Source: Escherichia coli
GTDB taxonomy: Bacteria > Pseudomonadota > Gammaproteobacteria > Enterobacterales > Enterobacteriaceae
Reading direction: 5' to 3' (one strand)
Length of the DNA stretch: 64,000 nucleotides
NCBI RefSeq assembly: GCF_001677475.2
Contig: NZ_CP015229.1
Shown here: one piece after another, positions 34,810-38,255 of the stretch
Position numbering within the stretch: position 1 is the first letter of the stretch
Layout: every line of letters begins with the position of its first letter
Notes under the pieces: model-generated
Told to the model about the DNA's origin: nothing
Seen by the model: the letters and a program-made list of their open reading frames with translations, nothing else
Database searches by the model: none
Made by a program: the position numbers and the translations under genes

Positions 34810-35625
34810 TTACCAGCCTTTAACAGCGCCGCCGTTAAACACTTTGTTTGCTGCTTCGTAAACTTCGTCAGACTGATAAGCCTGGACGAATTTCTTCACG
34901 TTCTCGGCGTCTTTGTTATCTTCACGCGTTACGATCAGGTTTACGTACGGGGACTCTTTATCTTCGACAAAGATACCGTCTTTCGCCGGAGTCAGACCAA
35001 TCTGGCTGGCATAGGTGGTATTGATAACTGCCAGAGCGATTTGCGCGTCGTCCAGAGAACGCGGCAGCTGCGGTGCTTCCAGCTCAACAATTTTCAGATT
35101 TTTGGGGTTCTCAACAACATCAAGAACGGTCGGCAGCAGGCCAACGCCATCTTTCAGTTTGATCAAGCCCACTTTTTGCAGCAGCAGCAGTGAACGACCA
35201 AGGTTAGTTGGGTCGTTTGGCACGGCAACCTGCGAACCATCCTGCAGTTCATCCAGTGATTTGATTTTCTTGGAGTAACCTGCAATCGGATAAACAAAAG
35301 TGTTGCCTACTGCGACCAGTTTGTAGCCACGATCTTTCAGTTGCTGATCAAGGTACGGTTTATGCTGGAAGGCGTTGGCGTCGATATCGCCTTTGCTCAA
35401 TGCTTCGTTTGGCAGAACATAGTCGTTGAAGGTTACCAGCTCAACGTCCAGGCCATATTTGTCTTTCGCAACTTTCTGCGCGACTTCTGCAACCTGCTGT
35501 TCGGCACCAACAATCACGCCGACTTTAATGTGGTTTGGATCTTTTTCATCCTGACCGCAGCCTACCAGTGCCAGTGATCCGATCAGGGCTCCCACTGCCG
35601 CAAAGGTTTTGAATTTGAACGCCAT
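34810..35625 (-). CDS. metQ: D-methionine ABC transporter substrate-binding lipoprotein
   Basis: 271-aa ORF MAFKFKTFAAVGALIGSLALVGCGQDEKDPNHIKVGVIVGAEQQV... Confidence 0.95.
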   Translation of the reverse strand: MAFKFKTFAAVGALIGSLALVGCGQDEKDPNHIKVGVIVGAEQQVAEVAQKVAKDKYGLDVELVTFNDYVLPNEALSKGDIDANAFQHKPYLDQQLKDRGYKLVAVGNTFVYPIAGYSKKIKSLDELQDGSQVAVPNDPTNLGRSLLLLQKVGLIKLKDGVGLLPTVLDVVENPKNLKIVELEAPQLPRSLDDAQIALAVINTTYASQIGLTPAKDGIFVEDKESPYVNLIVTREDNKDAENVKKFVQAYQSDEVYEAANKVFNGGAVKGW

Positions 35626-35664
35626 ACCTTATTCCTTCTTCAATTATTTATGTTGTGTTGAACG

Positions 35665-36318
35665 TTACTTGCGAGTGACAGCCCGGACGATGCGGTCGCC
35701 TGCGAACTGAATTAAATAAACCAGAATGACCAGCAATACCAGTACCGTATTCATCACCGTCGCGTTGTAGCCGATGTAGCCATACTGATAGCCAATCTGA
35801 CCTAAACCACCGGCACCGACTGCACCACCCATCGCGGAATAACCAACCAGGGTAATCAGGGTGATAGTTGCCGCATTCACCAGACCCGGCAGCGCTTCCG
35901 GTAACAGCACCTTACGGACGATCTGCATCGGCGTGGCACCCATTGCGCGGGAAGCTTCAATTAACCCGGTTGGGATCTCCAGCAGAGCGTTCTCGACCAT
36001 ACGGGCAATAAACGGTGCTGCACCAACGGTTAACGGAACAATCGCTGCCTGCAAACCAATCGATGTACCGACAATAACGCGGGTAAACGGAATCATCCAT
36101 ACCAGCAAGATAATGAACGGGATGGAACGGAAAATGTTCACAATCGCAGAAACGGTACGATACAGCTTCGCGTTAGCAATAATTTGCCCCGGACGCGTGA
36201 CATAAAGCAGAACGCCAACCGGCAGACCAATCACAAAGCCAAAAAAACCGGATACGAAGGTCATTGCCAGCGTTTCCCATACGCCACGAACCAGCAGCCA
36301 CATCATCGGCTCAGACAT
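35665..36318 (-). CDS. metI: D-methionine ABC transporter permease
   Basis: 217-aa membrane [38 protein letters not shown]... Confidence 0.95.
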
Positions 36319-37342
36319 AACCCAGTACCTCTACTTTTACATGGTGTTCCTGCAGCCAGGCAATGGCGGCTTGCGTATCTTGTTGGGTGCCGTGCATTTC
36401 AGTCAGCATGATGCCGAACTTAACGCCACCGGCGTAATCCATCTGCGCGCTAATAATGTTGTTGTTGACGTTGAAACGACGCGCGGTTTCAGAAAGCAGC
36501 GGGGCATCGACCGATTGACCGGTAAACTCCAGACGCAGCATCGGCACGCAGTCAGTAAATGGCTCCGCTTGCAGACGTTCCTGGTAATCTTCCGGGATAT
36601 CCAGATGCAGGGTCGACTGAATAAACTTCTGCGCCAGCGGCGTTTTCGGATGCGAGAACACTTCACTTACCGTGTCCTGCTCGATCAGTTCGCCATTGCT
36701 GATGACCGCCACGCAATCACAAATGCGCTTCACAACGTCCATTTCGTGAGTGATCAACAGAATCGTCAAACCCAGACGGCGGTTGATGTCTTTCAGCAGT
36801 TCGAGAATAGAACGTGTCGTTGCCGGGTCCAGCGCGCTGGTGGCTTCATCACACAGCAATACTTTGGGATTGCTGGCTAACGCACGGGCAATTGCCACAC
36901 GTTGTTTCTGCCCACCGGAAAGATTCGACGGGTAGCTATCATGCTTATCGCCAAGACCAACCAATGACAGCAATTCCGTCACGCGACGTTTGATCTCGTC
37001 TTTCGGTGTGTTGTCCAGCTCCAGCGGCAGAGCCACGTTGCCAAAAACAGTACGCGAAGAGAGCAGGTTAAAATGCTGGAAAATCATACCAATCTGGCGG
37101 CGAGCTTTGGTCAACTCGGATTCTGACAGCGTGGTCAGTTCCTGGCCATCGACCAGCACGCTACCCTCGGTTGGGCGCTCCAGCAGGTTTACACAACGTA
37201 TAAGCGTACTCTTACCCGCGCCTGAGGCACCGATAACGCCATAAATTTGTCCAGCTGGCACATGCAGGCTGACGTTGTTCAACGCCTGGATGGTGCGGGT
37301 GCCCTGGTGGAACACTTTGGTGATATTCGAAAGTTTTATCAT
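36311..37342 (-). CDS. metN: D-methionine ABC transporter ATP-binding protein
   Basis: 343-aa [49 protein letters not shown] (Walker A), [15 protein letters not shown] signature. Confidence 0.95.
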
Positions 37343-37424
37343 TGATTATTTATTATCGTCATTAAGTTAGTCGTGGCATTTCGAATGCCTGGAACGGGCA
37401 ACGCCGTCAATGAAATGGATGTTA

Positions 37425-37448
37425 AGGCATCCAGACGTCTAAATCAAT
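37425..37448 (-). promoter_or_regulatory. Probable MetJ operator (met boxes) upstream of metNIQ
   Basis: Exact consensus met box AGACGTCT at 37433-37440 flanked by degenerate 8-mers aggcatcc and aaatcaat, about 90 nt upstream of the metN start. Confidence 0.5.
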
Positions 37449-37529
37449 CAGGTTTATGCGAAGAGCACTTTCTTGCAGGTCGAAACATGCGATACTAGCG
37501 TCACATGCCTTATTAAGGAGCTATAAAAG

Positions 37530-38102
37530 GTGGCGAAGAGCGTACCCGCAATTTTTCTTGACCGTGATGGCACCATTAATGTCGATCACGGCTATGTCCA
37601 TGAGATCGACAATTTTGAATTTATCGACGGTGTTATTGACGCCATGCGCGAGCTAAAAAAAATGGGCTTTGCGCTGGTGGTAGTAACCAACCAGTCTGGC
37701 ATTGCTCGCGGTAAATTTACTGAAGCGCAGTTTGAAACGCTGACCGAGTGGATGGACTGGTCGCTGGCGGACCGAGATGTCGATCTGGATGGCATCTATT
37801 ATTGCCCGCATCATCCGCAGGGTAGTGTTGAAGAGTTTCGCCAGGTCTGCGACTGCCGCAAACCACATCCGGGGATGCTTTTGTCGGCACGCGATTATTT
37901 GCATATTGATATGGCCGCTTCTTATATGGTGGGCGATAAATTAGAAGATATGCTGGCAGCGGCTGCGGCGAACGTGGGAACAAAAGTGCTGGTGCGTACG
38001 GGTAAACCTGTTACGCCTGAAGCAGAAAATGCAGCGGATTGGGTGTTAAATAGCCTGGCAGACCTGCCGCAAGCGATAAAAAAGCAGCAAAAACCGGCGT
38101 AA
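37530..38102 (+). CDS. gmhB: D-glycero-beta-D-manno-heptose-1,7-bisphosphate 7-phosphatase
   Basis: 190-aa ORF, GTG start, (M)[34 protein letters not shown] (HAD DxDGT motif). Confidence 0.9.
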
Positions 38103-38124
38103 TGATTAAAAGATGAGCGGTTGA

Positions 38125-38180
38125 AATAAAAATGCATTTTTCCGCTTGTCTTCCTGAGACGACTCCCTATAATGCGCCTC
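38125..38180 (+). promoter_or_regulatory. rRNA operon P1 promoter with AT-rich UP element
   Basis: -35 ttgtct at 38147-38152, 16-nt spacer, -10 tataat at 38169-38174, GC-rich discriminator gcgcc; upstream gaaataaaaatgcattttt. Confidence 0.7.
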
Positions 38181-38255
38181 CATCGACACGGCGGATGTGA
38201 ATCACTTCACACAAGCAGTCGGTTCGGTTGAAGAGAAAAATCCTGAGATTCAGGG

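What the first reader, a model, noticed from the sequence alone, without database searches (positions are those of the whole stretch)
37417..37448. MetJ operator upstream of metNIQ
A perfect met box AGACGTCT (37433-37440) flanked by degenerate 8-mers lies upstream of metN, consistent with MetJ/S-adenosylmethionine repression of the D-methionine transporter. The flanking boxes are weak, so operator strength may be modest.
Basis: partly seen in the sequence, partly recalled or inferred. Interest (0 to 1): 0.2.

Follow-up and report, generated by a model that had tools for sequence, protein, structure and literature searches.

The report
Known MetJ operator at metN promoter
This is the already characterised binding site of the methionine repressor MetJ, sitting on the promoter of the E. 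coli methionine-uptake operon metNIQ; it is real and highly conserved but ordinary and not new.

Summary
AGACGTCT lies at 37433-37440, 91-98 bp upstream of the metN start codon on the minus strand.

With the published MetJ weight matrix the operator has three tandem boxes, not four. They span 37417-37440 (metN sense: AGACGTCT GGATGCCT TAACATCC) and total 20.4 bits. This is base-for-base the published E. coli K-12 metN operator, with the same 74-nt gap to the ATG.

It is the -35 hexamer region (TTGATT). A published transcription start, which maps to window position 37411, puts the boxes at -29 to -6. They fill the promoter spacer and cover the -10 hexamer (TAACAT, part of box 3). The likely mechanism is promoter occlusion by three cooperatively bound MetJ-SAM dimers.

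Supporting evidence:
- The 32-bp promoter/operator block is a sharp conservation island in 106 Enterobacterales.
- A 42-bp stretch containing it is identical in 5349 of 5426 complete E. coli genomes.
- No site this strong appeared in 300 shuffles of the window.

Published data show about 20-fold MetJ-dependent repression of a metN-lacZ fusion and about 14-fold derepression in a metJ deletion, so "modest strength" is not supported. The feature is already known and of low interest.

The parts
37417..37440 (-). MetJ operator: three tandem 8-bp met boxes in register (metN sense: AGACGTCT GGATGCCT TAACATCC)
   Evidence: Published-matrix scan gives 20.43 bits and this is the only passing site in the window. 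It is identical to the published K-12 metN operator. It is conserved in 106 Enterobacterales.
37433..37440 (-). Met box 1, perfect consensus AGACGTCT, at -29..-22 (inside the promoter spacer)
   Evidence: 12.58 bits. Mean identity to the window is 0.98 across 106 distinct sequences.
37425..37432 (-). Met box 2, GGATGCCT, at -21..-14
   Evidence: 4.22 bits. Mean identity is 0.89. Pectobacterium, Dickeya, Providencia and related genera carry the stronger AGACGCCT.
37417..37424 (-). Met box 3, TAACATCC, at -13..-6; its first six bases are the -10 hexamer
   Evidence: 3.63 bits. Mean identity is 0.98. Its non-consensus T and A at box positions 1-2 are the T and A of a TAnnnT -10 hexamer (inference).
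37419..37424 (-). -10 hexamer TAACAT (-13..-8) of the metN promoter
   Evidence: Placed from the published TSS. TAACAT occurs in 87, TACCAT in 14 and TAGCAT in 5 of 106 sequences.
   Evidence: The 8-mer scores -9.93 bits as a met box yet is conserved: TTGATT in 70 and TTGACT in 32 of 106.
37411..37411 (-). metN transcription start site (A)
   Evidence: Kim et al. 2012 Table S1 gives K-12 position 222,714 (minus strand), 83 reads and a 69-nt 5' UTR. K. pneumoniae has the same relative start. The 51-mer maps exactly to window 37411-37461.
37343..37411 (-). 69-nt metN leader
   Evidence: Runs from the TSS to the ATG. No Rfam family matches. The first 28 nt tend to form a hairpin across species.
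34810..37342 (-). Regulated operon metN (36311-37342), metI (35665-36318) and metQ (34810-35625)
   Evidence: ORFs. RefSeq annotation of near-identical E. coli genomes. All three genes are derepressed in a metJ deletion.

Best explanation
The block 37411-37447 (minus strand) is the sigma-70 promoter of metNIQ with a MetJ operator built into it. The -35 hexamer TTGATT is followed by a 17-bp spacer and the -10 hexamer TAACAT, and transcription starts at 37411. Three tandem 8-bp met boxes occupy -29 to -6. They fill the spacer and cover the -10 hexamer.

When methionine, and hence S-adenosylmethionine, is plentiful, three MetJ dimers carrying SAM bind the adjacent boxes cooperatively. The perfect box 1 probably anchors binding to the two weak boxes. 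This blocks RNA polymerase from the promoter and shuts down synthesis of the high-affinity L-/D-methionine ABC importer.

What is shown:
- the array and its score
- its identity to the published operator
- its conservation
- its position relative to the published TSS
- published MetJ-dependent repression

What is inferred:
- occlusion as the mechanism
- the anchoring role of box 1
- the reading of box 3's non-consensus bases as a compromise with -10 function
For: Array and chance. There are three in-register boxes totalling 20.43 bits. It is the only passing site in 64 kb, and 0 of 300 shuffles reach that score.

Match to the published operator. The sequence, box count, score and 74-nt gap are identical to the published K-12 metN operator.

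Position. The published TSS in both E. coli and K. pneumoniae places the boxes at -29..-6.

Conservation.
- 106 of 120 loci recovered through a MetN coding motif carry a passing site 34-105 nt upstream of metN.
- The seven Enterobacterales that fail the threshold still keep box 1, with box 2 at 2.0-2.8 bits.
- The conservation island (1.6-1.9 bits per column) stops sharply at both edges, where it falls to 0.24-0.48.
- Box 1 lies wholly in the spacer, where a promoter alone imposes no such constraint.
- A 42-mer is identical in 5349 of 5426 complete E. coli genomes.

Published function. The metN-lacZ ratio, wild type over metJ deletion, is 0.05. In a metJ deletion metN, metI and metQ are up 11- to 14-fold.
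Against: Direct MetJ binding to this fragment could not be verified here. The gel-shift figure is held only as an image, and the primary papers (Merlin 2002, Gal 2002, Marincs 2006) are not in the library.

The -35 and -10 hexamers match consensus at only 4 of 6 each, so the consensus scan did not list this promoter.

Boxes 2 and 3 only just pass the published per-box threshold of 3.15 bits.

The anchored alignment selects the best-scoring 24-mer. Part of the box conservation is therefore by construction, although the flanking -35 conservation and the sharp edges are not.

metJ itself is outside the window.
Confidence: 0.95

Rival explanations
1. A four-box, 32-bp operator as the reader drew it (37417-37448), with AAATCAAT as a fourth degenerate met box bound by a fourth MetJ dimer.
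For: The 8-mer is in register with the other boxes. It is as conserved as they are, with mean identity 0.94.
Against: It scores -9.93 bits against a per-box threshold of 3.15. The published annotation lists three boxes. Its conserved core is TTGAyT, exactly 17 bp upstream of the -10 and at -36..-31 from the mapped TSS, which marks it as the -35 hexamer.
Confidence: 0.03
2. The block is only the metN core promoter. The met-box resemblance is coincidental, and MetJ acts on metN indirectly, as it does on metH through MetR.
For: metH shows that strong repression in a wild type versus metJ-deletion comparison can be indirect. Direct binding at metN could not be checked here.
Against: A perfect consensus box inside the spacer is 98% conserved across Enterobacterales. 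0 of 300 shuffles give such an array. In four Pasteurellaceae loci the boxes likewise sit directly after a TTGACA -35-like hexamer. metNIQ boxes were among the 'known metboxes' used to build the published matrix.
Confidence: 0.02
3. The operator is bidirectional and also controls the divergent gene gmhB (LPS heptose phosphatase).
For: metN and gmhB are divergent neighbours in 107 of 115 loci, with a median 188-bp intergenic region. The boxes lie 89 bp from the gmhB start codon.
Against: gmhB is not among the 38 genes that change in the metJ-deletion RNA-seq. A separate conserved block at 37487-37498 (plus strand: TG-n-GATACT) looks like gmhB's own extended -10. That would put the met boxes at roughly -60 to -90 from a gmhB start (inference). 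exbB, which shares the metC operator region, is bound but not regulated.
Confidence: 0.04
4. The inverted repeat TGGATG-N6-CATCCA followed by a T-rich run (37433-37416, minus strand) is a terminator or attenuator hairpin rather than a protein-binding site.
For: The consensus scan flagged it as terminator-like.
Against: It lies at -22..-5, upstream of the mapped TSS, so it is not in the metN transcript. The symmetry follows from two adjacent, roughly palindromic met boxes. There is no Rfam match.
Confidence: 0.01

Closest known systems
E. coli K-12 metN (abc/metD) MetJ operator, as listed by Augustus & Spicer 2011 (PMC3228920, Table S1)
   Same: The 24-bp sequence, three boxes, the score (20.45 published, 20.43 here) and the 74-nt gap to the ATG are identical. 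The 51-nt promoter sequence is the same. The window differs from K-12 at only 2 of 301 surrounding bases, both in the leader.
   Different: Nothing in the operator or promoter differs. The window comes from another E. coli strain (best match 99.2% over 1.9 kb).
Other MetJ operators of the E. coli methionine regulon (metA, metJ/metB, metC, metE/metR, metF, metK, mmuP, ybdH/mtnE)
   Same: All are tandem 8-bp met boxes near the promoter of a methionine gene, read by a MetJ-SAM dimer per box.
   Different: Box number and information content vary from 2 to 4 boxes and 15.0 to 31.2 bits. metN ranks in the lower half by score, with one perfect and two weak boxes. Its last box doubles as the -10 hexamer.
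metN operators of other Enterobacterales and of Pasteurellaceae
   Same: The architecture is shared: a -35 hexamer directly followed by met boxes.
   Different: Pectobacterium, Dickeya, Providencia and related genera have a stronger box 2 (AGACGCCT; sites of 21.8-27.7 bits, some with four boxes) and shorter leaders. In the Haemophilus-type loci the perfect box is the second one, after TTGACAT AGCATTCT.

Membership tests
MetJ operator (met-box array) | At least two adjacent 8-bp boxes in register, each resembling AGACGTCT | tested here: met
   Three adjacent boxes score 12.58, 4.22 and 3.63 bits. Each is at or above the published per-box threshold of 3.15 bits.
MetJ operator (met-box array) | Total site score at least that of one consensus box (12.58 bits) with the published matrix, and beyond chance | tested here: met
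   20.43 bits. It is the only passing site in 64 kb, and 0 of 300 dinucleotide shuffles reach 20.4.
MetJ operator (met-box array) | Positioned on or next to the promoter of the regulated gene | tested here: met
   The boxes lie at -29..-6 relative to the published TSS, which maps to window 37411.
MetJ operator (met-box array) | Regulated gene belongs to methionine synthesis or uptake | tested here: met
   The downstream genes are metN, metI and metQ by RefSeq annotation of near-identical genomes.
MetJ operator (met-box array) | Conserved upstream of orthologues in MetJ-bearing taxa | tested here: met
   106 of 120 loci pass, and seven more keep box 1 with a slightly sub-threshold box 2. The conservation island has sharp edges. 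The published survey found metboxes in 121 of 122 enterobacterial genomes with metNIQ.
MetJ operator (met-box array) | MetJ- and SAM-dependent repression in vivo | not testable with these tools
   Published for K-12, whose promoter/operator is identical to the window's: the lacZ ratio is 0.05, and metN has log2 fold change 3.98 in a metJ deletion.
MetJ operator (met-box array) | [quoted passage not shown] | not testable with these tools
   The gel-shift figure is held only as an image. The primary papers are not in the library.
MetJ operator (met-box array) | metJ present in the same genome | not testable with these tools
   metJ lies outside the 64-kb window. K-12 carries it as b3938.
Sigma-70 promoter | -35 and -10 hexamers with 16-18 bp spacing placed correctly relative to a mapped TSS | tested here: met
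   TTGATT, 17 bp, TAACAT, then 7 nt to the TSS at 37411. Each hexamer matches at 4 of 6, which is below the scan's 9-of-12 cut-off, so the scan did not list it. Both hexamers are conserved.

The most novel reading that the evidence does not exclude
MetJ may not be the only control on metNIQ. The metN leader may carry an undescribed post-transcriptional element. Its first 28 nt form a hairpin in most Enterobacterales despite differing sequences. A CCACGG(C/A)TAAC motif and an AT-rich region before the ATG with no evident Shine-Dalgarno sequence are conserved. These could set mRNA stability or translation.
Probability: 0.2. Interest if true: 0.25.

Novelty: already known. Interest (0 to 1): 0.08.

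Why it matters
It confirms a textbook circuit: SAM-loaded MetJ shuts off methionine import when the cell has enough methionine. The only added value is a precise anatomy in window coordinates. There are three boxes, not four, and they sit in the spacer and on the -10 hexamer. The supposed fourth box is the -35. This explains how an operator with two weak boxes still gives about 20-fold repression. Nothing here changes current understanding.

Tried and rejected
Literature not available:
- Merlin 2002, Gal 2002, Marincs 2006 and Thomason 2015 are not held.
- The gel-shift supplement is an image only.

Tests that gave nothing:
- The promoter consensus scan did not list the real promoter, which matches at 8 of 12. 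It listed ATGCCA-16-GATAAT at 37379-37352 instead. No TSS supports that site in the E. coli or K. pneumoniae data.
- The same scan flagged a terminator-like hairpin. I rejected it because it lies upstream of the TSS.
- An Rfam scan of 37250-37600 at E-value up to 1 found nothing.
- RNAalifold on 17 Enterobacteriaceae leaders gave no consensus structure. Counting pairs for two hand-drawn hairpins showed no covariation beyond shuffles (79.1% versus 77.9% paired).

Readings rejected:
- The four-box reading, on the matrix score.
- gmhB co-regulation is made unlikely by the metJ-deletion RNA-seq.

Full report
**Context.** The window is E. coli chromosome. A 1.9-kb stretch around the finding matches 5424 of 5426 complete E. 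coli genomes, at up to 99.2% identity, and the annotated genes there are metI, metN and gmhB.

Gene coordinates:
- metQ: 34810-35625 (minus strand)
- metI: 35665-36318 (minus strand)
- metN: 36311-37342 (minus strand)
- gmhB: 37530-38102 (plus strand)

An rRNA operon follows gmhB in the annotated reference genome. The finding lies in the 187-bp metN-gmhB intergenic region. In the 301 bases around it, the window differs from K-12 MG1655 at two positions only, 37380 and 37392. Both are in the metN leader.

**The observation.** AGACGTCT is at 37433-37440 and is the only perfect copy in the window. One perfect box means little by itself. Dinucleotide shuffles of the window carry 0.57 copies on average, and 45% of them have at least one.

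I scored the region with the published MetJ information matrix and its rules: each box at least a quarter of the consensus score, adjacent boxes in register, and a total at least equal to the consensus score (PMC3228920 Table 3).

| Window coordinates | Plus strand | metN sense | Bits |
|---|---|---|---|
| 37417-24 | GGATGTTA | TAACATCC | 3.63 |
| 37425-32 | AGGCATCC | GGATGCCT | 4.22 |
| 37433-40 | AGACGTCT | AGACGTCT | 12.58 |
| 37441-48 | AAATCAAT | ATTGATTT | -9.93 |

The next 8-mers on either side score -19.4 and -17.2. The site is therefore three boxes, 24 bp and 20.43 bits. It is the only site in 64 kb that passes the published rules. Shuffles give 0.66 passing sites per window, but none of 300 reached 20.4 bits (maximum 19.4).

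**Comparison with the annotated operator.** Table S1 of Augustus & Spicer 2011 lists the following for E. coli K-12 b0199 metN: 3 boxes, 20.45 bits, a 74-nt gap to the start codon, and the sequence agacgtctggatgccttaacatcc. This is the reverse complement of window 37417-37440, and 37343-37416 is 74 nt. The match is exact.

Among the E. coli operators in that table, metN ranks in the lower half by bits: metK 15.0, metC 18.9, metN 20.45, metE/R 21.1, ybdH/mtnE 21.9, metF 25.0, metA 27.2, mmuP 27.9 and metJ/B 31.2.

**Promoter anatomy.** Kim et al. 2012 (PMC3415461, Table S1) mapped a metN TSS at K-12 position 222,714 on the minus strand, with 83 reads and a 69-nt 5' UTR. They found the equivalent TSS in K. 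pneumoniae (248,447; 105 reads; 71-nt UTR). The last 37 bases of the two 51-nt promoter sequences are identical. The E. coli 51-mer maps exactly to window 37411-37461, so the TSS is at 37411.

Positions relative to the TSS:

| Element | Sequence | Window coordinates | Position |
|---|---|---|---|
| -35 hexamer | TTGATT | 37442-37447 | -36..-31 |
| Spacer | 17 bp | 37425-37441 | -30..-14 |
| -10 hexamer | TAACAT | 37419-37424 | -13..-8 |
| Box 1 | AGACGTCT | 37433-37440 | -29..-22 |
| Box 2 | GGATGCCT | 37425-37432 | -21..-14 |
| Box 3 | TAACATCC | 37417-37424 | -13..-6 |

The generic promoter scan missed this promoter, because each hexamer matches at only 4 of 6. It reported instead a 9-of-12 match close to the ATG, which no TSS supports in the published data.

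**Conservation.** To avoid selecting on the operator itself, I scanned one genome per species for a degenerate pattern that encodes a MetN peptide ([18 protein letters not shown]).

- 106 loci have a site passing the published rules, 34-105 nt upstream of the metN ATG.
- Of the 14 without a site, three have a truncated upstream sequence and four are Pasteurellaceae.
- The other seven are Enterobacterales. They keep box 1 at 10.3-12.6 bits, with box 2 at 2.0-2.8 bits, just under the threshold.

I anchored 106 distinct Enterobacterales sequences on the operator and measured conservation per segment:

| Segment | Bits per column |
|---|---|
| Far upstream | 0.24 |
| Next 8 bp | 0.38 |
| ATTGATTT (-35 region) | 1.74 |
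| Box 1 | 1.88 |
| Box 2 | 1.60 |
| Box 3 | 1.89 |
| Just downstream | 0.48 |
| Further downstream | 0.24 |

Its upstream 8 bp is conserved as TTGAyT (TTGATT in 70 sequences, TTGACT in 32). Box 3 begins TAACAT in 87, TACCAT in 14 and TAGCAT in 5. Its T and A, which are non-consensus for MetJ, are kept as expected for a -10 hexamer.

Box 1 lies wholly in the spacer, where a promoter alone would not impose 98% identity. A gapped alignment of the whole intergenic region gives the same picture.

One caveat applies: anchoring on the best-scoring 24-mer inflates box conservation somewhat. The conserved non-consensus bases, the -35 block and the sharp edges are not produced by the anchoring.

Within E. 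coli, the 42-mer 37409-37450 is identical in 5349 of 5426 complete genomes. In four Pasteurellaceae loci (Haemophilus) a TTGACA is also followed directly by two boxes (TTGACAT AGCATTCT AGACGTCT).

**Function.** A fusion of the 400 bp upstream of E. coli metN to lacZ gave an activity ratio of 0.05 between wild type and a metJ deletion. Negative controls were near 1.0, and most repressed genes were below 0.25.

An independent RNA-seq comparison of a metJ deletion with a control K-12 strain gave log2 fold changes of 3.98 for metN, 3.80 for metI and 3.61 for metQ. This is 11- to 14-fold by normalised counts. Repression is therefore strong, not modest.

**Mechanism.** It is established that each MetJ dimer reads one 8-bp box through a beta-ribbon, that at least two adjacent boxes are needed, that neighbouring dimers bind cooperatively, and that SAM is the co-repressor (Somers & Phillips 1992 and Old et al. 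1991, as cited; one search states the two-box requirement).

Here the array covers -29 to -6. The best-supported mechanism is that three dimers occlude the promoter, with the perfect box 1 nucleating binding to the two weak boxes. Occlusion and nucleation are my inferences. I could not check direct binding to this fragment, because the gel-shift figure is held only as an image and the primary metD papers are not in the library.

**Rivals.**
- *Four-box operator.* It fails on the matrix score and on the -35 assignment.
- *Promoter only, with indirect MetJ control.* This is very unlikely given the conserved consensus box in the spacer and the shuffle result.
- *Co-regulation of the divergent gmhB.* gmhB is absent from the 38 differentially expressed genes in the metJ deletion. 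A separate conserved block at 37487-37498 (plus strand: TG-n-GATACT) looks like gmhB's own extended -10 element.
- *Terminator-like hairpin*. It lies upstream of the TSS. It is simply the symmetry of two adjacent, roughly palindromic boxes.

**Verdict.** The finding is real, correctly identified and already known. Two corrections apply: there are three boxes rather than four, because the fourth 8-mer is the -35 region, and repression is strong. Interest is low.

Noticed in passing
window 37384-37411 (minus strand), first 28 nt of the metN leader; same position in L002-L121: Most Enterobacterales can form a hairpin starting about 3-4 nt after the TSS, with different sequences in different genera. 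Across 97 species the mean MFE z-score is -1.28 and 31% fall below -2. Two control segments give about 0 and 1-4%. The window's own hairpin is weak (-4.5 kcal/mol, z = +0.26), and 17 Enterobacteriaceae show no covariation. It may be a 5' stabilising stem-loop.
   Followed up: partly
window 37343-37383 (minus strand), 3' part of the metN leader: The motifs AATGCCACG(G/A)CTAAC and CGATAATAAATAA are conserved just before the ATG, and there is no obvious Shine-Dalgarno sequence. The promoter scan scores ATGCCA-16-GATAAT (37379-37352) at 9 of 12, but no TSS is reported there in E. coli or K. pneumoniae.
   Followed up: partly
window 37487-37498 and 37515-37520 (plus strand): A second conserved block sits in the intergenic region: cATGcGATACTa, which fits an extended -10 (TG-n-GATACT). 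It lies about 35 nt upstream of the gmhB GTG and is followed by a conserved AAGGAG ribosome-binding site. It is probably the gmhB promoter. Kim et al. 2012 list no gmhB TSS.
   Followed up: partly
L002-L121: The divergent metN-gmhB arrangement is kept in 107 of 115 loci, with a tightly constrained intergenic length (quartiles 181-189 bp). In Tatumella ptyseos (L041) gmhB is about 1.5 kb away. No gmhB match was found beside metN in six of the seven Pasteurellaceae loci or in Psychromonas.
   Followed up: partly
window 37409-37450 versus the E. coli genome collection: Three of the 5356 matching places for the 42-bp promoter/operator are on records labelled as plasmids. 74 genomes gave no megablast match, possibly because a single internal mismatch breaks the 28-base word.
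   Followed up: no
window 36300-38200: The best identity to any of 5426 complete E. coli genomes is only 99.2% over 1.9 kb, and 4794 records fall at 95-99%. The window's strain therefore has no very close relative in that collection at this locus.
   Followed up: no
L009, L013, L085 (Haemophilus); L056, L066, L117: Pasteurellaceae metN promoters show TTGACAT followed by a weak box and then a perfect AGACGTCT, 29-46 nt from the ATG. The perfect box is shifted by one 8-bp register compared with E. coli.
   Followed up: no
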